Made by a program: the position numbers and the translations under genes. This document shows, piece after piece, positions 53,421-64,000 of a stretch of 64,000 nucleotides of DNA (position 1 is the stretch's first letter; each line of letters opens with the position of its first letter). A model generated the notes under the pieces. The model was not told the DNA's origin, searched no databases, and was given only the letters and a program-made list of their open reading frames with translations. The stretch covers positions 14,602 through 78,601 of the forward strand of contig JACQQD010000008.1 in NCBI GenBank assembly GCA_016207165.1, in the 5' to 3' direction. The DNA comes from Candidatus Micrarchaeota archaeon. GTDB lineage: Archaea; Micrarchaeota; Micrarchaeia; Norongarragalinales; Norongarragalinaceae.

Positions 53421-54209
53421 TCAGAAATACGCGGAAAGCGGGGCGGCATTGATTTTCCTTCCCACCGCGTCCGGCAACCCGAACACGCGGCGCTCCCCGT
53501 TCTGCTGCAAAAACAAGACGGGTCCCTTCCACCCCGTCACCGTGCCTTGAAGCGTGGGCGTGGGCCGCGCGTCCAACGAATCGGGGTAATGGCGTTGAAG
53601 GCTTTGCACGGGCTTTTCCACGGAATTCTCCGGAAACGCGTCGCGCACGCGCCGGATGTGGGGTTGCTCCAACTCGTCTTTCAGAAGCGTCCCATCGGGC
53701 TTGGGTAGTTTCATCTTGTCTCCCAGCACGATGCGGGCCGCCAAACCGGTTCGAAACAAGGCGGATTCAATGACGCGCGCTTTCTGCCCGTTCAACCCCG
53801 AAAACGCTTCCAAGGCAAAGTCGGCGCCTTGCTCGACCCACCGCTTTTCCAGTCGGCTCGTCTTGGAGATGCCGGCTTTCACGGTTTGCCCAAACGACGC
53901 CAAATACACGGAGTACTCTTTTCCAAAACAATCGTCCTTGAGTTGGGAATTAAACTGGAGGCACGTAGCCCCGTCGCACCGCAAACAGACCAGGAAATCG
54001 TCTTCTTTGGCGCATGACGAGCACTGCTTGCGCCCAATACGCGTTTCAGGACAAACATGGCGTTGCCCGCTTCGGGAGTATCCCAGGCAATGCACTTCGG
54101 GATGCAGAGCCAAGTCGACGGCGGAGCCTTTTTCCAATAGCTGGGTTTTTTCGCCGATGTGCAGCTGCGGCACCCATTCGTCGGAATACGAAACGCGTTC
54201 GATGAGCAT
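53421..54209 (-). CDS. DUF2797-type Cys-rich protein
   Basis: CLGY..CP..QCSSC, CLRCDG..C, VYLASFG..KAGIS...RWVEQGA. Confidence 0.8.
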   Translation of the reverse strand: MLIERVSYSDEWVPQLHIGEKTQLLEKGSAVDLALHPEVHCLGYSRSGQRHVCPETRIGRKQCSSCAKEDDFLVCLRCDGATCLQFNSQLKDDCFGKEYSVYLASFGQTVKAGISKTSRLEKRWVEQGADFALEAFSGLNGQKARVIESALFRTGLAARIVLGDKMKLPKPDGTLLKDELEQPHIRRVRDAFPENSVEKPVQSLQRHYPDSLDARPTPTLQGTVTGWKGPVLFLQQNGERRVFGLPDAVGRKINAAPLSAYF

Positions 54210-56004: not shown

Positions 56005-57762
56005 TTAATGGCTTGCGGGGTGGTCCGGCGTGTGGGTAGCGTGGTGTTGGACGGCGGCGGCCACAAAGGCTTTGAAAAGCGGTTGGGGGGAAAGCGGGCG
56101 GGACGTGAATTCGGGATGGAACTGGACGCCGACGAAGAAGGGGTGGTTGGGCAATTCCAGGATTTTCATGATGGGGTGCTTGGGGTCTTTGCCGGAAAAA
56201 ACGATTCCGCTTTTTTCGAATAACTCGATGTATTTGGGGTTGCACTCGTATCGGTGCCGAAAGCGTTCGCGAATCGACGTGGCGCCGTAGTATTTTTCGG
56301 CCAGGGTGTCCTTGACGATGTGGATGTTTTGTCCGCCCAGCCGCATGTTGCCGCCCAGCCCCTCTTTCTCTTTTTGTTCCGGCAGAATGTCGACGACGTC
56401 TTCCTTTGTCTCGGGATCGATTTCCGTGGTGTTCGCGTTTTTCAGGCCCAAGACGTTGCGGGCAAATTCCACCAGAGCCATCTGGAAGCCGTAGCACAAG
56501 CCAAAGTAAGGGAGTTTTTGTTCGCGGGCGTGCTGGATGCACAGGATTTTGCCTTCCGCGCCGCGCGCGCCAAAGCCTCCGGGCACGATGACGCCGTCAA
56601 CGCCTTCCAGTGTTTTCGCGGCGTCCTCCCGTGACTTGATTTTCGTTGTTTCCACCCACTCCACAATGACGTGGGCGTCATTGGCCGCTCCGGCATGTTC
56701 CAAGGCGTTCAGGATGGAGGCGTACGCGTCGTGCAGGCCCGTGTATTTTCCGGTGATGGCGATTTTGATTTCGGTTTTCGGGGACTTGATTTTTTCTTCG
56801 AATTCCTGCCAGCGCGCCAACGCCTTTTCCTGGGTCTTGAGTTTCGCTTTCAGCTGCAGGATATCGGTGACGGCCGCGTCGGCGCCGGCTTGCTTGATGG
56901 CCAGGGGCACGGCGTAAATGCTTTCCGCGTCCGGCAAACTGATGACTCGGTCCAGCGGCACGTTGGAGAAAATCGAGAGTTTCTCGCGGATTTTTTCGGG
57001 GATGGGTTCGTGCGACCGGCAGACCACCAAATGGGGTTGGATGCCCATGCTCATCAACTGGCGGATGCCCAGTTGCGCGGCCTTGGACTTGTGTTCGCCC
57101 AAGGAATCGGGTTTGAGGATGTACGTGACGTTAACGAAGCAGGAATTGCCGGGGCCCTCCTCGTACGCCATTTCGCGAAGCGCTTCAATGGCGTAGCTGT
57201 TTTCGATGTCCCCCACGGTTCCGCCCACTTCGATGAGCACCACGTCGGCTTGCGTCTGTACCGCCAGGGTGCGGATGAAGGACTTGATTTCCCCGGTGAC
57301 GTGCGGAATGAATTGCACGTCGCGGCCGAGGTATTTGCCGTCGCGTTCGCGTTGAATGATTCCGGAGAACAGTTTTCCGGCGGTCAAGTAATTTTGTTTC
57401 GAAAGCTCTTGGTCCAGGAAGCGTTCGTACGTGCCGAGGTCCATGTCGCATTCCGTGCCGTCGTCCAGGACAAAAACTTCTCCGTGGCGGTAGGGGTTCA
57501 AGGTGCCGGCGTCCACGTTCAAGTAGCCGTCGAACTTCATGGCCTCGACTTTCAGCCCCTGGTCCTTGAGGAGTTTGGCAAGCGACGCGGAAAAAATGCC
57601 TTTGCCGACTCCTGAAATCACGGAGCCGGTGACGATGACGTACTTGGTCTTCCCGAATTCGTAGTTTTTGGGGATGGGGGTGTAGAATTCGTGTTCGTCG
57701 GTTTTCTTTGCGAGGCTCTTGATGAGCTGTTCCTGTTCGGTTTGCTCTTTTTTGGCGATCAT
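56005..57762 (-). CDS. pyrG: CTP synthase with N-terminal extension
   Basis: SGVGKG, YLNVDAGTLNP..HGEVFV, GGTVGDIE, GLCYGFQ, ERFRHRYE, QFHPEF. Confidence 0.97.
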   Translation of the reverse strand: MIAKKEQTEQEQLIKSLAKKTDEHEFYTPIPKNYEFGKTKYVIVTGSVISGVGKGIFSASLAKLLKDQGLKVEAMKFDGYLNVDAGTLNPYRHGEVFVLDDGTECDMDLGTYERFLDQELSKQNYLTAGKLFSGIIQRERDGKYLGRDVQFIPHVTGEIKSFIRTLAVQTQADVVLIEVGGTVGDIENSYAIEALREMAYEEGPGNSCFVNVTYILKPDSLGEHKSKAAQLGIRQLMSMGIQPHLVVCRSHEPIPEKIREKLSIFSNVPLDRVISLPDAESIYAVPLAIKQAGADAAVTDILQLKAKLKTQEKALARWQEFEEKIKSPKTEIKIAITGKYTGLHDAYASILNALEHAGAANDAHVIVEWVETTKIKSREDAAKTLEGVDGVIVPGGFGARGAEGKILCIQHAREQKLPYFGLCYGFQMALVEFARNVLGLKNANTTEIDPETKEDVVDILPEQKEKEGLGGNMRLGGQNIHIVKDTLAEKYYGATSIRERFRHRYECNPKYIELFEKSGIVFSGKDPKHPIMKILELPNHPFFVGVQFHPEFTSRPLSPQPLFKAFVAAAVQHHATHTPDHPASH

Positions 57763-57872
57763 GCACCCACGTTCCAACACAACGACTGGCGTCTAAGGCT
57801 GAAAGGGCTAAAAAATCCGTGCCTGTTATTCTTTTCGTGGCGGAAGTATTTAAGCGTTCACGTGGCCTTTTC

Positions 57873-58244
57873 TCACAAAAGCAACAGGACGATGAGCACG
57901 AAGACCAGCACGCTTTGGAGGCTGGTTCCGCCGGTCATGGCCGCCGCGGTTTCTGTCAGCGAAATGGGGCCGACCAGTCGATTGAACAGCTGCACGCCGC
58001 CAAGTCCCAATAAGACGATGATGACCCAGGGCAGGATGCCTAAGATGAATGCGATGATGCCAAAGACGATGTTGATTCCGACGATGGCTTTAAACACGTC
58101 CAGAAGCAGGCTCCAGGCGTAAAACGAGGCGCCGGTGCCGAAGCCGTTTTCGCCCAAGCCCATCAAGACGACGGTGGCGAACAGAAGCCCGTAAAACCAA
58201 AGAATCGGGCCTTCCAAGCGAAACACGGAATCCAGGATTCCCAT
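57873..58244 (-). CDS. Membrane protein
   Basis: About four hydrophobic helices; co-oriented after gatB. Confidence 0.65.
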   Translation of the reverse strand: MGILDSVFRLEGPILWFYGLLFATVVLMGLGENGFGTGASFYAWSLLLDVFKAIVGINIVFGIIAFILGILPWVIIVLLGLGGVQLFNRLVGPISLTETAAAMTGGTSLQSVLVFVLIVLLLL

Positions 58245-58265
58245 ACCACTATGCGGTGGTAACAA

Positions 58266-59645
58266 TCACTTTTTAAGGTTTTGGATGGTGGCTTTCAGTT
58301 TTTCTCGGACTTCGTTGGGTTGAAACCCTCGGTGGCGCTTGAGGAACTCGCCCAGCAAGAATTCCAGGGATTTTTCCTTGCCGGCAAGGTATTCCGAAAC
58401 GGCTTGGGGATTGGATTTCAGGACTTCCGCAACCAGTTCGTCCATCTCGCCTCCTTTCTGTGCGGAGAGAAAGTGCTGAATGGGTTTTTGATGGGTGACC
58501 ATTTCCTTGATGTATTCCTTGGCGGCGCGCTCCGTGATTTTTCCGCTGGACACGGCGGACAACAACGCATCCAGTTCCTGGACGGCCAGCGCTTTGTGCG
58601 GTTCCCAGATGCCGTGGTAGTTCATGCACTTGAGTAAATCTCCGCACACCCACTTCGCCAAAAACAGTTTGTCCGGCGTCTTCGAGGATTCAAAGTAAGG
58701 CGCGAGATTCTGGAAAACGAGCACTTCGGCGTATTGGGCGGGGACGAAATGGGAGAGGCGCCTCGTGGCGATTTCTGGGAGTTCCTTCATGGCGGAAAGC
58801 GTTTCCTCCAGGAATGCCTCGTCCAAGTACAGGGGGGGCAGGTCGGGTTCCACGATGTAGCCGTAGTCTTCTTCCTGTTCCTTGGTGCGCATCAACAGCG
58901 TGGTGTTGGTCTCTTCGGAGTAAAGCCGGGTTTGGCGTTCGACGTTCTCGCCGCTTTGCTTGGCTTTGCGCTGGCGGAAGAACTCGGCTTGGAGTGCCTT
59001 TTCCACGGCTACAAAGCTGGTGATGTTCTTGATTTCGACGCGCTCTCCGCCTGGAATGGATAGGTTCGCGTCGGTTTTCATGACGCGTTCGTTTTGTGCG
59101 TCAATGACGCCCAAATACGACAACTTCTTGAACAACGCCTCCAAGTACGCTTTGGCGTCCGCCGGACTTTTCAGGCAGGGGTCCGTCACGATTTCAGCCA
59201 GTGGCATGCCGGAGCGGTTGTAATCCAACAAACTGTACGTGCTGTTGGCCATGTTGCCGTGCGGGTACACGATTTGCGCGGGGTCCTCCTCCAAGTGCAG
59301 TCGCGTCAGCGTTACGGTAATTTTTCCGTTGACGTTCAGCGCGCCTTTTTCGGCCAAAGGCGAGTCGTATTGCGTGATTTGGTAATTCTTGGACAAGTCC
59401 GGATAATAGTACGTCTTTCGCGCGAACAAGCTTTTACGGTTCAACTGCATCCCCAAGGCGGTGGCGGCCTGGACGGCGAGTTTCACGGCTTTCTCGTTGG
59501 TTACCGGCTTTGAACCCGGCAAGCCCAAACAGATTTCGCAGGTGTGGGCGTTGGGCTCCGCGGGAGCGGTAGGGCAGCCGCAGAAAAGCTTGGTTTCCGT
59601 GTCGAGGGTGACGTGCGTCTCCAACCCGATTTTCATTTCACTCAT
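58266..59645 (-). CDS. gatB: Asp/Glu-tRNA amidotransferase subunit B
   Basis: IGLETH, KLFCGC, RKTYYYPDLSKNYQITQY, HLEED, DYNRSGMPL. Confidence 0.97.
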   Translation of the reverse strand: MSEMKIGLETHVTLDTETKLFCGCPTAPAEPNAHTCEICLGLPGSKPVTNEKAVKLAVQAATALGMQLNRKSLFARKTYYYPDLSKNYQITQYDSPLAEKGALNVNGKITVTLTRLHLEEDPAQIVYPHGNMANSTYSLLDYNRSGMPLAEIVTDPCLKSPADAKAYLEALFKKLSYLGVIDAQNERVMKTDANLSIPGGERVEIKNITSFVAVEKALQAEFFRQRKAKQSGENVERQTRLYSEETNTTLLMRTKEQEEDYGYIVEPDLPPLYLDEAFLEETLSAMKELPEIATRRLSHFVPAQYAEVLVFQNLAPYFESSKTPDKLFLAKWVCGDLLKCMNYHGIWEPHKALAVQELDALLSAVSSGKITERAAKEYIKEMVTHQKPIQHFLSAQKGGEMDELVAEVLKSNPQAVSEYLAGKEKSLEFLLGEFLKRHRGFQPNEVREKLKATIQNLKK

Positions 59646-60930
59646 GGGGTTGTTCTACCTGTCGTGCGACGTCGCTCAGTGTTTTTTCCTGGAAGTGATT
59701 TGTGATGATCTGGAGGCCGACGGGCAATCCGGAAACACGGCCGCAGGGAATGCTGGCATGCGGCAAGCCGGCGAGGTTGGGGGCGCCGGTGCAGATGTCC
59801 ATGGCGTAGTGTTCCAGGGGCGAGAGTCTTTCAATTTCCCGAAAACGCGGAGCCACGCATGGCATGGAAGGCGTGATGAGTGCATCGTATTTCTCAAAGA
59901 GTTTCTTGAATTCTCGGATGACCAAGGTTCGGACTTTCGCGGCTTTCTCGTAGTATTTTCCGCGGTAGCCGGCGGTGCGGGCAAACGAGCCCAAAATCAG
60001 GCGGCGCTTGGCTTCGGCGCCAAAACCCTGGGCGCGCACGCGGGAAAAGTATTCCGTGTACGTCTCGGATTCTTCGGGTTTCGGCTGGATGCCGTACCGC
60101 AGGCCGCAGTACTTGGCCAAGTTCGTTGACGCTTCGCTCATGGCCAACACGTAGTAGGCGTAGAGTCCGGGGTCCGCCAACGGAAACGGCGCCTCTTCCA
60201 CGGCGACGCCTTGGGCTTGCAGTTGGCCTGCGGCTTTTTGGCACTGTTTTTGGATGGATGCATCCGTCTTCTCCCAAATCGTCGTCAGCAACGCGATTTG
60301 GTTCGTGCGTTTTTTTTCCGGGAATGGTTTCGTGGTTGTCGCGTCTTTTTCGTCGGGTCCGGCCATGGCGTAAAGCAAGCGGAATGCGTCCTGGACGGTG
60401 GTGGCCATGACTCCGATTTTGTCCAACGAATTGGCGTAGTCAATCAATCCCCAGCGCGACACCCGCCCGTACGTGGGCGTCAACCCCACCACGCCGCAGA
60501 AGGCCGCCGGAGCCGTGATGCTGCCGCCGGTGGACTCCGCTACGGAGGGCATGCCGGTAAACGCCGTGAACGCGGCGGATCCCCCCGATGATCCCCCGGT
60601 GCAACGCAATGCGTCGTGCGGGTTTTTCGGGATTTTCTCGGTGTTGACGTTGAACGTCCCGAACCCGAATTCGTCCATTACGGTTTTGCCCGCCACCACG
60701 GCGCCTTGGTCGATGAGTCGTTGGACGCACGTCGCCGTAAAAGGCGGCACGTAGCCCTCCAAAATTTTCGAGCCGGCGCGCGCCGGCATGCCTTGCACGC
60801 ACAGGTTGTCCTTGACGGCGATGACCGTATTGGAAAGCGGACCCGACTTGGCGGGCCCTAGTTTTTCCGGGATGAATTGCATGCAGTCCAACTTCTTGTC
60901 GGCCTGCCGGGTTTTTTCCAAGGCGTTCAT
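59638..60930 (-). CDS. gatA: Asp/Glu-tRNA amidotransferase subunit A
   Basis: VKDN, GGSSGGSA, TGGSI..PAAFCG, PTYGRVSR, EASTNLAKYCGLRYG. Confidence 0.96.
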   Translation of the reverse strand: MNALEKTRQADKKLDCMQFIPEKLGPAKSGPLSNTVIAVKDNLCVQGMPARAGSKILEGYVPPFTATCVQRLIDQGAVVAGKTVMDEFGFGTFNVNTEKIPKNPHDALRCTGGSSGGSAAFTAFTGMPSVAESTGGSITAPAAFCGVVGLTPTYGRVSRWGLIDYANSLDKIGVMATTVQDAFRLLYAMAGPDEKDATTTKPFPEKKRTNQIALLTTIWEKTDASIQKQCQKAAGQLQAQGVAVEEAPFPLADPGLYAYYVLAMSEASTNLAKYCGLRYGIQPKPEESETYTEYFSRVRAQGFGAEAKRRLILGSFARTAGYRGKYYEKAAKVRTLVIREFKKLFEKYDALITPSMPCVAPRFREIERLSPLEHYAMDICTGAPNLAGLPHASIPCGRVSGLPVGLQIITNHFQEKTLSDVARQVEQPHE

Positions 60931-60937
60931 TCTGGGT

Positions 60938-61213
60938 TCACCGCATCATGCGGGGGCCTTTGAGGTACCCTTTCTCTTTCCGGCTATGGTTTCCGGTGGG
61001 GTTTGTGCAGGGTTTTGGTTCGTCCGGCCGCAGCCTCGGCGAAAGCGCCACGGGGTGATAAGATGGTTCAACGCCGTTGGTGTCGATTTGGTCCAACGCG
61101 TCAAAGGCTTTCAAGACATCTTGGAGTTGCTGGGAAAGAATTCGAATTTCTTTGTCGGAAAGCGCCAGGCGCTGGGCGACGGCTATGTTATTGATTTTTT
61201 CCTTTAAATCCAA
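60938..61213 (-). CDS. gatC: Asp/Glu-tRNA amidotransferase subunit C
   Basis: RLALSDKE..L..QL..VL..F..L..IDT.GVEP..HP...LRPDEP, GYLKGPR; TTG start assumed. Confidence 0.88.
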   Translation of the reverse strand: MDLKEKINNIAVAQRLALSDKEIRILSQQLQDVLKAFDALDQIDTNGVEPSYHPVALSPRLRPDEPKPCTNPTGNHSRKEKGYLKGPRMMR

Positions 61214-61350
61214 AATAATCCCCTGTAACGCCGAATTGAAGGAGTTCTCCTGTGGGCGTGTTGAAAGAAAAAGGTATTTGTTGGCCGCCGGCCACGCGGT
61301 AACGCGTGGCGGAAAAACCAAGGAGTCGACGCGGGCAATCGCATGGCACC

Positions 61351-61509
61351 ATGGCGGTGGCGGTCATGGTTTTGTTGGTGCCCGTGGTGCCGGTGGCGTA
61401 CTGGTTCACGGATCATCTCGCCCCCGTGTTTAACTGGTTTGAGGGCCCCCAGATTCTCGCGGCCACCGCCGTTTTGGCGTGGATGTTTTTCCAGAAGTTC
61501 CACTATTAA
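61351..61509 (+). CDS. Small two-helix membrane protein (tentative)
   Basis: MAVAVMVLLVPVVPVAYWF...ILAATAVLAWMFF. Confidence 0.4.
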   Translation: MAVAVMVLLVPVVPVAYWFTDHLAPVFNWFEGPQILAATAVLAWMFFQKFHY

Positions 61510-61605
61510 AAAGAGCGCCCGAGGTCAGGACTCGAAGGTCGCCCCAGGGGGCTCCGCCCCCTTGGCCCGACCTAGGCCTCGACCCCCGACTAGCTTTTTG
61601 AATCG
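61509..61605 (-). repeat. Stem-loop mini-element C plus duplicated tRNA-Asn 3' end
   Basis: 61509-61536 equals 61606-61632 except for one inserted base; shares AGGGGGCGGAGCCCCCTG with element B. Confidence 0.85.
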
Positions 61606-61612
61606 AAAAGAG

Positions 61613-61737
61613 CGCCCGAGGTCGGACTCGAACCGACGGCCTGCTGATTTCTGTGGATTCAATGAGTTTGCCGACGACCCAAAGTCGGCGGTTACGCTCT
61701 TAACAGTCAGCCGCTCTACCTGCTGAGCTACCCGGGC
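61613..61737 (-). tRNA. tRNA-Asn(GUU) with 52-nt intron at position 37/38 (intron 61649-61700)
   Basis: GCCCGGG/CTCGGGC-G acceptor; GCTGA-CT-GTT-A|A-TCAGC anticodon arm; GTCGG-TTCGAGT-CCGAC T arm; BHB central helix CTGT/ACAG. Confidence 0.95.
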
Positions 61738-61917: not shown

Positions 61918-61956
61918 GAAAAGAAAAAGAAAGAGGAAAAAGGGGGCTGCGCCCCC
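61918..61956 (-). terminator. GC hairpin plus T-rich tract ending the right-hand operon
   Basis: GGGGGCGCAGCCCCC followed by TTTTTCCTCTTTCTTTTTCTTTT, just after the stop at 61967. Confidence 0.65.
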
Positions 61957-61966
61957 AACGACGCGC

Positions 61967-62275
61967 CTAGTGGCCGATGATGACGGTACGCTTGGATTGA
62001 AGGGTGCGTTGCTTGCGGAACTCCTTGAGTTGGTAGAAGTACACGGCGGCCGACAAGGCCGGCACGGCCAGGACGAGGTTGACGAAGAGCAGGTAGATGC
62101 CTAAAACCGTTAGGGCCATGAAGTAAAAATTGAACCGCACGTACTCCTTCCACAACGTCAAAAAGCGCGCGATGTAGTCCCACCGCGTCGTCGCCCTCAG
62201 CATCGGTGCCTTGCTCTCGGTGACGGCCATCGAGAGCGTGACGCCGGGGTTGTGCTGGATTTCGTCGTGTGCCAT
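61967..62275 (-). CDS. Two-TM membrane protein, paralog family member
   Basis: PMLRATTRWDYIARFLTLW then TM hairpin; GGAGGTGA SD upstream. Confidence 0.8.
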   Translation of the reverse strand: MAHDEIQHNPGVTLSMAVTESKAPMLRATTRWDYIARFLTLWKEYVRFNFYFMALTVLGIYLLFVNLVLAVPALSAAVYFYQLKEFRKQRTLQSKRTVIIGH

Positions 62276-62280
62276 AATTC

Positions 62281-62403
62281 CTACTTCACCTCCAATTTAG
62301 CGAAGCGAAGGGCGGAGCGTTGCGATCGATGCAACGCATCGATCGCTTCCAACGCCGTGGCCTTCGCAAACTCTTTTTTTTCCATCTTGTTTTTTTCTTC
62401 CAT
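62281..62403 (-). CDS. Possible 40-aa ORF overlapping a long hairpin
   Basis: MEEKNKMEKKEFAKATALEAIDALHRSQRSALRFAKLEVK fills the operon gap. Confidence 0.35.
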   Translation of the reverse strand: MEEKNKMEKKEFAKATALEAIDALHRSQRSALRFAKLEVK

Positions 62404-62414
62404 GGTGTCGTTGC

Positions 62415-62879
62415 CTACTTGGCGTAGTACAGGGCCTTGCCCTTGAACCACGTCACGTTCCAGGGTGGCTCAATGAGGCGTTGCGACCAGAACAATCCGG
62501 TCAGAAACGCGAACGCCGCCGAGACGTACAAGTTGATGTTGTAGAAGAACACCATGAGGATGAACGCCACCACCGCCCAAAAGTAGAAGCGGTAGGCGGT
62601 GCCCAACCCGCCGCGAAACGAGCTGTCCAACAGTTCCGACAGGAATTTGGAACGCGTTTTGACGTGCATGGTGTGCACCGGCACTTCTTTCCCGCCTTCC
62701 TTCATGTTGCCGCCGCGTTGTCCAATGGGCACGTACATGTGGTGGAATTGCCGGGGGCCGGGTCCGTGGCCGCCTCCGCCATGCGCGTGCGGCGCGTAGT
62801 GGGCACTGCCGTGCGCCTTGACGTGGTCGCGCAAGTCCCTCGCGTTGATTCCGTGAATTTTTCCGTGTCCTTCGCTCAT
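62415..62879 (-). CDS. His/Gly-rich two-TM membrane protein
   Basis: His-rich N-terminus, HVKTRSKFLSELL, TM hairpin. Confidence 0.8.
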   Translation of the reverse strand: MSEGHGKIHGINARDLRDHVKAHGSAHYAPHAHGGGGHGPGPRQFHHMYVPIGQRGGNMKEGGKEVPVHTMHVKTRSKFLSELLDSSFRGGLGTAYRFYFWAVVAFILMVFFYNINLYVSAAFAFLTGLFWSQRLIEPPWNVTWFKGKALYYAK

Positions 62880-62880
62880 T

Positions 62881-63081
62881 TCAGCTCACACTCAACAGCC
62901 AGTAGATGACCGTGAAGACCACCACGGCATTGATGATCCAGTCCGGCAAAATCAAGCCGTGGTCAAACATGCCTGTTTTGAAGTCCGTCGGCCCGTCAAT
63001 GATTTTGACGAGGCCGAAGTCTTCCAGTAGGGACATGAGGTGGGTCTCCCACGGGGCATCCGGTTCCTCGTATTCAGCCAT
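62881..63081 (-). CDS. Small acidic protein with C-terminal TM
   Basis: 66 aa, tightly packed in the operon. Confidence 0.7.
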   Translation of the reverse strand: MAEYEEPDAPWETHLMSLLEDFGLVKIIDGPTDFKTGMFDHGLILPDWIINAVVVFTVIYWLLSVS

Positions 63082-63092
63082 TTTTTTCTACC

Positions 63093-63590
63093 TTAGTCCA
63101 CCAAGGTCAAGGTACGCGAGTACCCGAACTTTTTGGCGATGAAGTCGTACATCCAGGCCAACTCCTTGTGGCGTCCGGCCAGCATGAACATCAACAAGGC
63201 GCCGGGCGGAAACGTCTCCAACGTCAGCAACCCCAAGGCGAAAAACAAGATCGTCTGGATCTTGGACGTAATGCCCTGGCGCCACCACTCGACGTACTCC
63301 GCCAAATACTCCCAGCGCGTGAACTGCCGCAGGTTGGGCGGAAGAGTCCGCTCCACTTCCATGGGCATGTACGACACGTGCAAGTGCTCGCCGCCGCCAT
63401 GCGGCTGCCCGTCGCCGTGGCCCCCGCCGCTTTTTGGGGCGGGTTTGCCTTCGTTTTTGGCCTTGGCAGCCAAAAGCTCTTTCTCGGACTCCTCAAAGAT
63501 TTCTCCCACGTGGTGCGCGGGCGTGGCCGACTCCTCGATAGAGTGAAGCAGCGCGTCGCGCGGATCCCCGTGTCCATGGCTCACCTTCAT
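63093..63590 (-). CDS. His/Gly-rich two-TM membrane protein
   Basis: PNLRQFTRWEYLAEYVEWW then hydrophobic hairpin; GGTGA SD. Confidence 0.8.
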   Translation of the reverse strand: MKVSHGHGDPRDALLHSIEESATPAHHVGEIFEESEKELLAAKAKNEGKPAPKSGGGHGDGQPHGGGEHLHVSYMPMEVERTLPPNLRQFTRWEYLAEYVEWWRQGITSKIQTILFFALGLLTLETFPPGALLMFMLAGRHKELAWMYDFIAKKFGYSRTLTLVD

Positions 63591-63594
63591 TCAC

Positions 63595-63966
63595 CTACGT
63601 GCTTTCCAACAGGTACCGTTTCTTGTACAACTGGTTGATGTAGAAGTCCTTCTTGAGAAACTCGCCGTAACTCCAGGCCGCGCCCATGCCGGAAACCGCG
63701 GCCAACAGCGGGTTGGAGAACAAAAACAACACCGTGGCAATGCCTCCCGCTACGGACAGCGCCCGGTAGCCGTGGAATTCCCGCCAGTCCGTGATGCCTT
63801 TCGTCAAGAATTCCTGACGGCGCTGGACGTTGATGACGGGTTTGCCTTCTGTCGCCACCGGGGTGAACATGGTGGTCTGCTCAAACTCGGGATCGCTTGT
63901 TTTGCCGATAAACTTGGCTTTGTCGGCGGCCACGACCTGTTTGATGCTTTGGGCGTTGTGCGTCAT
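63595..63966 (-). CDS. Two-TM membrane protein, paralog family member
   Basis: PVINVQRRQEFLTKGITDW then TM hairpin with LFLFSNPLLA. Confidence 0.8.
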   Translation of the reverse strand: MTHNAQSIKQVVAADKAKFIGKTSDPEFEQTTMFTPVATEGKPVINVQRRQEFLTKGITDWREFHGYRALSVAGGIATVLFLFSNPLLAAVSGMGAAWSYGEFLKKDFYINQLYKKRYLLEST

Positions 63967-64000
63967 TTGAACCTGTACTACATACCTACTTCCTTATTTA

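What the first reader, a model, noticed from the sequence alone, without database searches (positions are those of the whole stretch)
61967..63966. Operon of divergent paralogous two-helix membrane proteins with His-rich N-termini
Seen: 5-6 tightly packed minus-strand ORFs with SD sites, a TATA-like TAAATAA at the window edge and a terminator at 61918-61956. Four share a block just before a TM hairpin: PMLRATTRWDYIARFLTLW, PNLRQFTRWEYLAEYVEWW, PVINVQRRQEFLTKGITDW and HTMHVKTRSKFLSELL. Two also share LF(V/S)N(L/P)xLA at the turn. Two have long His/Gly-rich N-termini. I recognise no family. Inference: subunits of an undescribed hetero-oligomeric membrane complex (channel, membrane-shaping or host-contact), possibly metal- or pH-responsive.
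Basis: partly seen in the sequence, partly recalled or inferred. Interest (0 to 1): 0.78.

Follow-up and report, generated by a model that had tools for sequence, protein, structure and literature searches.

The report
Orphan five-gene membrane-hairpin operon, Micrarchaeota
Five small membrane-protein genes, four of them ancient copies of one another, are kept side by side behind their own conserved promoter in one group of tiny symbiotic archaea (Micrarchaeota); they match no known protein family and probably build one membrane complex whose job is unknown.

Summary
Window 61918-64000 (minus strand) carries a tight operon. A (123 aa), B (165), D (154) and F (102) are two-helix membrane hairpins. 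C (66 aa) is an unrelated tail-anchored acidic protein. A sixth ORF (E) is not conserved and is probably not a gene. Profile comparison links A-D, B-F and A-F well above reversed-profile controls, and one Arg is invariant in all 106 aligned sequences. The order A-B-C-D-F recurs in 23 of 29 related loci. B occurs in 33 of 35 sampled genomes of the window's own order and in 0 of 266 genomes of other orders of the phylum. Only 148 of 1.84 billion representative proteins match the superfamily, and every named one is a 'hypothetical protein' of Candidatus Micrarchaeota. Pfam, NCBIfam, PHROGs, PDB sequences and fold searches give no family. A 25-nt promoter (upstream box plus BRE/TATA), cut by the window edge, is conserved in 51 of 61 genomes of the order, mostly once per genome. 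All soluble parts look cytoplasmic, which argues against host contact. The His-rich tails occur in only some lineages. Best reading: a new hetero-oligomeric, cytoplasm-facing membrane complex. Its function (scaffold or channel) is only inferred, and assembly is not shown.

The parts
63994..64000 (-). 3' part of the TATA box of the operon promoter. The full element TGTTACTACC-AGTA-AGTTTATAAAT is G000:C8:78597-78621, so the upstream box and BRE lie just beyond the window edge.
   Evidence: The upstream regions of gene A line up across loci. The pattern TGTTACYACYNNNNAGTTTAWAWAT, with at most 1 mismatch, is found in 51 of 61 genomes of the order, 54 matches in all, against 0 for the reversed control. 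GTTACTACC occurs only 3 times in the window's own genome.
63595..63966 (-). Gene A, 123 aa, a two-helix hairpin subunit (A/D type). Consensus PMFLPVxTxGKxVxxVxTRQxFL, then the hairpin, then the C-terminus KKRxLLEGT.
   Evidence: Alignment A1 of 29 orthologues has invariant P36, R50, W61, G101, R117 and E121. Present in 29 of 29 loci.
63093..63590 (-). Gene B, 165 aa, a hairpin subunit (B/F type). Residues 1-~69 are a His/Gly-rich tail limited to the genus. The conserved core is residues ~70-165 and ends in FGKxRSLVLVD.
   Evidence: Invariant residues are R92, Y95, E98, G120, F155, G156 and R159. Found in 36 of 41 relatives' genomes.
62881..63081 (-). Gene C, 66 aa, an unrelated tail-anchored subunit with an acidic N-terminal part (LLEDxGLV, F..AMF, PD) and one C-terminal membrane helix.
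   Evidence: On average about 1 residue follows the helix, and the 45 aa before it hold 6.5 Asp/Glu against 3.1 Lys/Arg. hhalign probability against A, B, D and F is <=0.2%. Present in 27 of 29 loci. Profile hits are all Ca. Micrarchaeota.
62415..62879 (-). Gene D, 154 aa, a hairpin subunit (A/D type). It has a His/Gly-rich N-terminal tail. The conserved core is MYVPM...DGKPVHxLxVxTR, then the hairpin (AxxxAxxxGxxxS in helix 2), then WFKGKALIxTK.
   Evidence: AlphaFold2 places the hairpin at H92-111 and H117-153, with pLDDT 96-97 in the core. Present in 28 of 29 loci.
62276..62414 (-). D-F spacer. It contains most of the doubtful ORF E (62281-62451) and a perfect 11-bp-stem palindrome at 62322-62346.
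   Evidence: No E-like ORF exists in same-genus loci, where the spacer is A-rich non-coding DNA. Palindrome. In other genera D and F are 1-11 nt apart.
61967..62275 (-). Gene F, 102 aa, a hairpin subunit (B/F type). Consensus AExKxPxLxMxTRxxY...WK, then the hairpin, then the C-terminus RTVMIGH.
   Evidence: AlphaFold2 gives a hairpin at H31-65 and H67-92, with block-mean pLDDT 91-97 for residues 41-80. Present in 27 of 29 loci.
61918..61956 (-). Terminator: a 6-bp GC stem with a 3-nt loop at 61942-61956, then a T-rich run to 61918.
   Evidence: and the sequence.

Best explanation
This is a real, vertically inherited five-gene operon (A-B-C-D-F) of one order of Candidatus Micrarchaeota (DPANN archaea).

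A, B, D and F are paralogues of one previously undescribed ~95-residue module. The module runs: a short N-terminal strand or Pro segment; an invariant Arg that starts a helix running straight into membrane helix 1; a 2-4-residue outer turn (Asn in A and D, Pro in B and F); membrane helix 2, rich in small residues; and a short, family-specific, strictly conserved C-terminal tail. The module most likely arose as a two-gene pair that was duplicated in tandem (A-B giving D-F). C is an unrelated tail-anchored acidic protein.

I read the five products as obligate subunits of one hetero-oligomeric complex in the cytoplasmic membrane, with all non-membrane parts on the cytoplasmic face. In that reading the hairpins pack through the small-residue faces of helix 2. 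The Arg/aromatic collar, the C-terminal tails and acidic C tie the subunits together beneath the membrane.

The operon is driven by a near-consensus BRE/TATA promoter with an operon-specific upstream box, presumably the site of a dedicated regulator.

Shown: the genes, the paralogy, the conservation, the distribution, the promoter and the absence of any known family.

Inferred: topology, assembly and function.

My function guesses:
- an abundant membrane-organising or anchoring scaffold, about 0.35
- a pseudo-tetrameric small-solute or ion channel, about 0.2
- accessory subunits of another membrane machine, about 0.15
For: Genes and hairpins.

Paralogy:
- hhalign scores are A-D 100, B-F 82.5 and A-F 65.7, against a best reversed-profile control of 41.2.
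- One column, the Arg of the TR motif, is invariant in all 106 aligned sequences.
- B finds only F elsewhere in its own genome.
- The tree makes each family one group and splits (A,D) from (B,F) with SH-aLRT 87, which is not strong.

Fixed set:
- The window's genome has exactly four superfamily members and one C, all in this operon.
- Family HMMs find A in 29, B in 29, C in 27, D in 28 and F in 27 of 29 loci, with the order ABCDF in 23. Of the other six loci: L008 reads ABDCF, which I put down to an over-long D ORF start. L009 has an extra F-type copy. L016 has that extra copy too and the held DNA ends 388 nt after D. L022 and L023 stop at contig ends. L031 lacks a C hit.
- Genes are 0-11 nt apart or overlap in relatives.

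Distribution:
- B is found in 36 of 41 relatives.
- B is found in 33 of 35 genomes of the own order and 0 of 266 elsewhere in the phylum sample.
- 148 of 1.84e9 representative proteins match at E<=1e-3. All are 72-235 aa with one matched stretch each.
- Named cluster members are all Ca. Micrarchaeota 'hypothetical protein'.

Vertical, core-like context: the neighbours are GatCAB, CTP synthase, RadA-, Hjc- and DnaG-like genes and an S-layer gene.

Topology:
- The 20-aa flanks on both sides of the hydrophobic block hold 2.5-4.6 Lys/Arg.
- C is tail-anchored and acidic.
- One relative has an N-terminal 4xCxxC domain.

Promoter.
Against: - No experiment or prediction shows that the proteins touch.
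- The monomer models are confident only for the hairpins. The conserved tails have pLDDT below 60.
- Topology rests on charge bias and on the absence of signal peptides as I read the sequences. No dedicated predictor was run.
- No RNA or protein evidence of expression exists.
- B-D similarity does not exceed the reversed-profile control, and A-B and D-F exceed it only slightly. The four-way homology is therefore transitive.
- The (A,D)|(B,F) split has only moderate support, and the alternative groupings were not tested to completion.
- Nothing in the data discriminates between scaffold, channel and accessory-subunit functions.
- The genome has its own CorA (227 bits), so no obvious missing transporter is being replaced.
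Confidence: 0.6

Rival explanations
1. The four hairpins form a pseudo-tetrameric channel for an ion, a metal or a small solute. This would be built like the CorA or Ctr1 two- and three-helix channels. The His-rich or Cys-rich cytoplasmic tails would act as metal sensors or collectors.
For: - Membrane helix 1 continues as a long cytoplasmic helix.
- The outer turn is very short and has a conserved Asn in A and D.
- Basic residues follow helix 2.
- Helix 2 of A and D has small-xxx-small ladders.
- His-rich tails recur in several lineages, and one relative carries a 4xCxxC domain.
- The superfamily profile hits a Ctr1 chimera, 6m97, at E 0.0014.
Against: - The 6m97 alignment starts inside the BRIL fusion partner (TTRNAYIQKYL) and only then runs into Ctr1 helices 2-3, so part of the score is a chimeric accident.
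- None of the 22 families listed for the 106 members at E<=0.1 is a CorA or Ctr family.
- There is no GMN or MxxxM motif and no conserved charged or polar residue inside the helices.
- The metal-binding tails are not conserved.
- The genome has a bona fide CorA.
Confidence: 0.2
2. The proteins are small accessory or stabilising subunits of a known membrane machine, such as the Sec translocon, the oligosaccharyltransferase, the signal peptidase or a glycosyl/lipid transferase. This would resemble the small hairpin subunits of the eukaryotic ER complexes.
For: - Small size, hairpin shape, cytoplasmic termini and a tail-anchored partner that resembles Sec61-beta in layout.
- A housekeeping gene neighbourhood.
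- A strong promoter.
Against: - No catalytic or translocon gene is linked to the operon in any of the 20 regions examined.
- C gives no Sec61_beta hit at E<=1, and none of the 22 families listed for the 106 hairpin members is a known small-subunit family.
- Universal machines would not need subunits confined to one order.
Confidence: 0.12
3. The operon encodes the membrane anchor of the S-layer, or a host-contact device.
For: - The divergent upstream neighbour is an S-layer protein (PF05124, 61.4 bits against a cut-off of 23.9).
- The same neighbour is seen in 6 of 20 regions examined.
- The anchoring of the Micrarchaeota S-layer protein is stated to be unknown and possibly dependent on a second membrane protein (bioRxiv 10.1101/2021.04.28.441871, passages read).
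Against: - The linkage holds only within the window's own family (G000, G001, G003, G006, G007, G010). Other families have Hjc-, MetAP- or other genes upstream.
- The predicted exposed surface is a turn of 2-4 residues, which is too little to hold an S-layer or touch a host.
Confidence: 0.06
4. There is no complex. The products are independent or redundant small membrane proteins, or cargo of a mobile element or virus, such as a holin or an immunity protein.
For: - Small hairpin proteins are common holins or immunity proteins.
- An 18-nt repeat of the tRNA 3' end lies downstream.
- The complex prediction gave no support either way.
Against: - All four paralogues and C are kept single-copy in a fixed order across 10 of the 11 families sampled in the order, at only 30-45% identity.
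- The flanks are housekeeping genes, with no integrase.
- There is no meaningful PHROG hit. The best is E 0.004, to families of unknown function.
- A dedicated promoter is conserved.
Confidence: 0.05

Closest known systems
Mic10 (MICOS core subunit of mitochondria); properties recalled, not fetched
   Same: A small protein made of one membrane helical hairpin. Small-residue motifs in a membrane helix drive oligomerisation. Its role is in shaping or organising a membrane rather than in catalysis.
   Different: There is no GxGxGxG motif; A and D have AxxxAxxxGxxxS-type ladders only. No Pfam hit to it appears among the families listed for the 106 members. Here there are four distinct conserved paralogues plus a tail-anchored partner, conserved N- and C-terminal tails, and an archaeal host.
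CorA-type (2-TM-GxN) divalent-cation channels, Pfam PF01544
   Same: Two C-terminal membrane helices. The first continues as a long cytoplasmic helix. The outer loop is very short and holds a conserved Asn. Basic residues follow helix 2.
   Different: No GMN motif, no large cytoplasmic alpha/beta domain, and no PF01544 among the families listed. It would be a hetero- rather than a homo-oligomer. The genome already encodes a CorA of 227 bits.
Ctr1 copper channel (PDB 6m97, BRIL chimera)
   Same: Best PDB sequence hit of the superfamily profile (E 0.0014, 21.6 bits). It has a tight helix 2-3 hairpin with Asn at the turn and a Gly/Ala-rich last helix, and His-rich tails.
   Different: The alignment begins in the BRIL fusion partner. 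Ctr1 has three helices and an MxxxM motif (recalled), and its His/Met-rich tail is extracellular. None of the families listed is a Ctr family.
Lineage-specific modules of hypothetical protein families in archaea (Meheust et al. 2022, PMC9258230; passages read)
   Same: Families without Pfam or KEGG annotation that are confined to one lineage yet well conserved inside it.
   Different: In the passages I read, that study reports such modules for non-DPANN lineages and refers DPANN to another paper. Nothing I read describes this operon. Its supplements were not seen.
Earlier scan note e1-3840399: orphan five-gene membrane-hairpin operon of Micrarchaeota
   Same: Tandem two-helix hairpin paralogues with an R-x-D-[YF]-L motif (here TRWDY[IL]), conserved order in Micrarchaeota, and no known family.
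   Different: It is in another genome, is described as five paralogues, and lies next to pilus genes. Identity of the family was not checked by sequence. It is an unchecked AI note.

Membership tests
Mic10 / MICOS (Pfam PF04418; accession recalled) | Sequence match to the family model | tested here: not met
   All 106 members were scanned against Pfam-A at E<=0.1. Only scattered sub-threshold hits to 22 unrelated membrane families appeared, and none was to this family.
Mic10 / MICOS | GxGxGxG glycine motif in a membrane helix (feature recalled) | tested here: not met
   The consensus sequences of A, B, D and F show no such motif. A and D have small residues every fourth position instead.
Mic10 / MICOS | A single two-helix membrane hairpin | tested here: met
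   Hydropathy. AlphaFold2 hairpins in F at H31-65 and H67-92, and in D at H92-111 and H117-153.
CorA (PF01544) | Match to the family model, the GMN loop motif and a large N-terminal cytoplasmic domain | tested here: not met
   No PF01544 hit for any member. The turn is xN[PL] or xPG. The N-terminal parts are 10-100 aa and unconserved. The true CorA lies elsewhere in the genome.
Ctr copper transporter (PF04145; accession recalled) | Match to the family, with three membrane helices | tested here: inconclusive
   The PDB profile hit to 6m97 has E 0.0014, but the alignment starts in the BRIL partner. No such family appears among those listed. Only two helices are present here.
ATP-synthase proteolipid (c/K subunit, PF00137; accession recalled) | A conserved carboxylate inside helix 2 of the hairpin | tested here: not met
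   The mean number of Asp/Glu per hydrophobic block is 0.0-0.5. None of the invariant or nearly invariant residues listed for A, B, D and F that fall in my hydropathy-defined helices is Asp or Glu. No PF00137 appears among the families listed.
Sec61-beta (PF03911; accession recalled), considered for C only | Match to the family model | tested here: not met
   A Pfam scan of C at E<=1 gives only RelB-like at 0.3. NCBIfam gives none. The PDB profile gives nothing below E 0.06. The tail-anchored layout itself is shared.
Phage holins and other viral small membrane proteins | Match to a PHROG family or a viral structure, with a mobile context | tested here: not met
   PHROGs: two hits at E 0.004-0.005 to families of unknown function, and none for C, D or F. 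BFVD Foldseek: best E 1.0. The neighbours are housekeeping genes.
NapE (name given by one source to cluster member P0170) | Match to a curated NapE model | tested here: not met
   P0170 gives no NCBIfam hit at E<=1. The name is an automatic label from one source.

The most novel reading that the evidence does not exclude
The operon encodes a new kind of pseudo-symmetric hetero-oligomeric pore or membrane-organising machine that was invented in one order of Micrarchaeota. It would consist of four diverged two-helix subunits, derived from a duplicated gene pair, clamped on the cytoplasmic side by a tail-anchored acidic subunit. It would be expressed from a dedicated, regulator-controlled strong promoter. 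It would serve the exchange of ions, metals or lipids, or the membrane architecture, on which these host-dependent nano-sized cells rely.
Probability: 0.2. Interest if true: 0.75.

Novelty: categorically new. Interest (0 to 1): 0.5.

Why it matters
Micrarchaeota and other DPANN archaea have tiny genomes in which most lineage-specific genes are unannotated. How their membranes are organised, and how they exchange material with hosts, is an open question.

This is a compact, strictly conserved five-gene set with no relative in any curated family or solved structure. It keeps four ancient paralogues in a genome of only ~1.3 Mb and has its own conserved promoter element. Retention of that kind in a reduced genome argues for an important function.

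The set is small enough (five proteins of 66-165 aa) for co-expression, cryo-EM and liposome assays. It would define a new membrane-protein superfamily and a new archaeal cis-regulatory box. If it proves to be only a structural filler, the find is still a clean family definition for annotation pipelines.

Tried and rejected
- Complex prediction of the A, B, D and F cores, with F as partner: score 0.01 against a mark of 0.32, so no verdict. It is not used as evidence either way.
- Foldseek of the F model against PDB: best E 7.7.
- VIA-align wide search with the F model: best Z 8.7. Generic helical hairpins lead the list (a designed protein, Snf7/PspA, BAR domains), and this is within the range the tool calls a common arrangement.
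- Foldseek of the D model against viral structures: best E 1.0.
- ESM Atlas with A: best score 0.82, unnamed bacterial clusters, below the useful range.
- PDB sequence profile for C: nothing below E 0.06.
- CorA-replacement idea: rejected, because the genome has CorA. MgtE was not found in a genome that is 90% complete.
- Sequencing runs: four groundwater DNA holders from one study plus one small-share run.
- The search for related loci with the B alignment failed for lack of a conserved stretch. The single protein found two groundwater Ca. Micrarchaeota MAG contigs.
- AU tests of the alternative family groupings did not finish in time.
- Literature: searches for 'Micrarchaeota' + 'S-layer' and for 'Micrarchaeota', 'protein families', 'hypothetical', 'transmembrane' and 'lineage-specific' returned nothing on this operon in the listings and passages I read.
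- ORF E as a sixth subunit: rejected.
Full report
WHAT IS THERE

The window is G000:C8:14602-78601 of a 1.27-Mb, 12-contig, ~56.5% GC genome that is 90% complete. On the minus strand between 63966 and 61967 lie ORFs A (123 aa), B (165), C (66), D (154), E (56, GTG start) and F (102).
- The gaps are 4, 11 and 1 nt for A-B, B-C and C-D. D and F are 139 nt apart.
- A 6-bp GC stem (61942-61956) followed by a T-rich run ends the unit.
- Hydropathy gives one ~35-43-residue hydrophobic block in A, B, D and F, and one C-terminal helix in C.
- AlphaFold2 with orthologue alignments gives a confident helical hairpin in F (H31-65, H67-92) and in D (H92-111, H117-153). The N- and C-terminal tails have low confidence.

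PARALOGY

Within the window alone the signal is weak but specific. B searched against the whole genome finds only itself and F (E 2.9e-4).

I built alignments of 26-29 orthologues per family (A1-A4). hhalign then gives:

| Pair | Probability | Score |
|---|---|---|
| A-D | 98.8% | 100 |
| B-F | 98.3% | 82.5 |
| A-F | 97.2% | 65.7 |
| A-B | 94.1% | 48.3 |
| D-F | 93.5% | 45.2 |
| B-D | 85.9% | 39.1 |

Profiles read backwards, which keep composition and hairpin symmetry, score at most 41.2. Three links are therefore solid and join all four families. B-D on its own is not above the control.

The shared plan has five parts:
- a strand or Pro segment
- TRxx[YF][LM]...W[KR]
- the hairpin, with Asn (A, D) or Pro (B, F) at the turn
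- a basic residue
- a short tail that ends the protein and is specific to each family: KKRxLLEGT (A), FGKxRSLVLVD (B), WFKGKALIxTK (D), RTVMIGH (F)

A tree keeps each family as one group and splits (A,D) from (B,F), with SH-aLRT 87, which is moderate. Together with the gene order A-B-C-D-F, this fits tandem duplication of an ancestral two-gene unit. The alternative groupings were not tested to completion.

C matches none of the four (<=0.2%). It is acidic and tail-anchored.

ORF E has no counterpart even in the same genus, where the D-F spacer is A-rich non-coding DNA. In the window the spacer holds a perfect 11-bp palindrome. I do not count E as a gene.

CONSERVATION AND DISTRIBUTION

- B is found in 36 of 41 relatives' genomes.
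- With the B profile, 33 of 35 sampled genomes of the own order match, and 0 of 266 genomes from other orders of the same phylum sample. The two non-matching genomes of the order are 83% and 89% complete.
- Family HMMs on 29 loci find A in 29, B in 29, C in 27, D in 28 and F in 27, with the order ABCDF in 23.
- The six exceptions are as follows. L008 reads ABDCF, which I put down to an over-long D ORF start. L009 has an extra F-type paralogue between C and D, and so does L016, whose held DNA also ends 388 nt after D. L022 and L023 are cut by contig ends. L031 lacks a C hit.
- The own genome has exactly four superfamily members and one C, all in this operon.
- Orthologues in different families of the order are only ~30-45% identical. 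The set is therefore old and under purifying selection.
- A full HMMER pass of the joint profile over 1.84 billion representative proteins finds 148 at E<=1e-3 (125 at <=1e-10). All are 72-235 aa with one matched stretch each, so no fused forms were seen. The weakest hits still show the TR motif, the hairpin and the tail.
- Every member that carries a name is 'hypothetical protein [Candidatus Micrarchaeota/Micrarchaeia archaeon]' or 'Uncharacterised protein [uncultured archaeon]', apart from one automatic 'NapE' label that no model supports.
- The nearest relatives are groundwater MAGs.

NO KNOWN FAMILY

- Pfam on the five window proteins and on all 106 members gives only scattered sub-threshold membrane hits.
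- NCBIfam gives only one far-sub-threshold hit, for F (E 0.021, 14.3 bits against a cut-off of 350).
- PHROGs gives only two hits at E 0.004-0.005, to families of unknown function.
- The best PDB sequence hit, a Ctr1-BRIL chimera (E 0.0014), begins inside the BRIL partner.
- Fold searches return generic helical hairpins.
- The Atlas search gave nothing useful.

PROMOTER

Lining up the DNA upstream of gene A shows a strikingly conserved element, TGTTACYACY-N4-AGTTTAWAWAT.
- In the own genome it lies at C8:78597-78621.
- With at most one mismatch, the pattern occurs in 51 of 61 genomes of the order, 54 matches in all, against 0 for the reversed control.
- I compared by eye the 32 genomes for which both give positions. 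In 31 of them the motif lies 410-860 nt upstream of the B match on the same strand. G011 is the exception.
- GTTACTACC occurs 3 times in the own genome, and a full TTTATAWAT box 16 times.
- A 10-nt box kept unchanged while the proteins diverged to ~35% identity points to a dedicated DNA-binding regulator. The near-consensus TATA suggests strong expression. Both points are inference.

CONTEXT

- Downstream lie an intron-containing tRNA, GatC, GatA, GatB and CTP synthase.
- Upstream, outside the window, lies a divergent 984-aa S-layer protein (PF05124, 61.4 bits).
- In 20 regions from the order, the S-layer neighbour appears in 6, all in the window's own family. CTP synthase lies downstream in 9. 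The other neighbours are RadA-, Hjc-, DnaG-, CBS- and MetAP-like by my reading of the sequences.
- No integrase or mobile-element genes were seen.

HOW IT MOST LIKELY WORKS

Both flanks of each hairpin are Lys/Arg-rich (2.5-4.6 per 20 aa), and the turn is 2-4 uncharged residues. There are no signal peptides by my reading. C has ~1 residue after its helix, and one relative carries an N-terminal 4xCxxC domain. By the positive-inside rule (established knowledge), the tails and C's acidic domain face the cytoplasm.

Four non-redundant paralogues and C are kept in fixed order and dosage, with conserved chain ends. These are the marks of a defined hetero-oligomer. I propose a nine-helix (or multiple) bundle packed through the small-residue faces of helix 2 (AxxxAxxxGxxxS in D and a similar ladder in A). 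A cytoplasmic collar would be formed by the invariant Arg, nearby aromatics, the C-terminal tails and the conserved acidic motif of C.

Assembly is inferred, not shown. Function is open. I rank an abundant membrane-organising or anchoring scaffold first (~0.35), a channel second (~0.2), and accessory subunits of another machine third (~0.15). S-layer anchoring and host contact are unlikely given the topology.

The His-rich tails are real in this genome. They are found in the window's genus and a few other lineages only, so they are at most a local adaptation.

COMPARISON AND NOVELTY

In layout the module recalls Mic10, the membrane end of CorA, and helices 2-3 of Ctr1. It fails the testable defining features of each (see the membership table).

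An earlier, unchecked note of this scan (e1-3840399) describes what is probably the same superfamily in another Micrarchaeota genome.

I found nothing in print on it in two literature searches and the passages read.

VERDICT

This is a real, conserved, undescribed five-gene membrane operon with its own promoter. The paralogy is confirmed. Complex formation is plausible but unproven, and the function is unknown.

Noticed in passing
window 61613-61737 (-): A tRNA gene of 125 nt with an intron of ~52 nt after position 37. By my reading the anticodon is GTT (Asn). ARAGORN in bacterial mode found no tRNA in the whole window. Rfam scores it 57.2 bits.
   Followed up: partly
window 61509-61526 and 61606-61623: An exact 18-nt direct repeat of the tRNA 3' end plus a T-run, 97 nt apart. 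It could be the scar of an integrative element's attachment site.
   Followed up: no
G000:C8:78597-78621 (just beyond window position 64000): An operon-specific upstream box, TGTTACYACY, sits 4 nt before the BRE/TATA. It is conserved in 51 of 61 genomes of the order and is presumably a transcription-factor site. No regulator was identified.
   Followed up: partly
G000:C6 about 53728-53750 (+): The 17-mer ATTTTGTTACTACCAGT of the operon promoter recurs once elsewhere in the genome. There it lies upstream of a TATA-like TTTTTATAG and of a gene for a protein with an N-terminal membrane helix and a long Lys/Glu-rich region that looks like a coiled coil. It may belong to the same regulon.
   Followed up: no
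G000:C8:78881-81835 (+), locus L062:382-3333: A 984-aa S-layer protein (PF05124 S_layer_C, 61.4 bits) is transcribed divergently from the operon. The same neighbour is seen only in genomes of the window's own family.
   Followed up: partly
window 62322-62346: A perfect palindrome, GCGATCGATGC-GTT-GCATCGATCGC, lies in the D-F spacer inside the non-conserved ORF E. Same-genus relatives instead have a 180-250-nt A-rich spacer that begins with a T-run.
   Followed up: partly
L009:921-1214 (-) and L016:2182-2469 (+): Two families of the order carry an extra F-type paralogue between C and D (F HMM 70.6 and 60.0 bits), giving the order A-B-C-F'-D-F.
   Followed up: partly
protein P0168 (235 aa): A D-like hairpin protein fused to an N-terminal domain with four CxxC pairs, which looks like a zinc ribbon. 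It is the only domain fusion I saw among the 18 hits whose sequences I read; all 148 are 235 aa or shorter with one matched stretch each.
   Followed up: no
window 56005-61321 (-): GatC (60938-61321), GatA (59638-60930), GatB (58266-59645) and CTP synthase (56005-57780) lie in a row downstream. CTP synthase follows the hairpin operon in 9 of 20 regions examined.
   Followed up: partly
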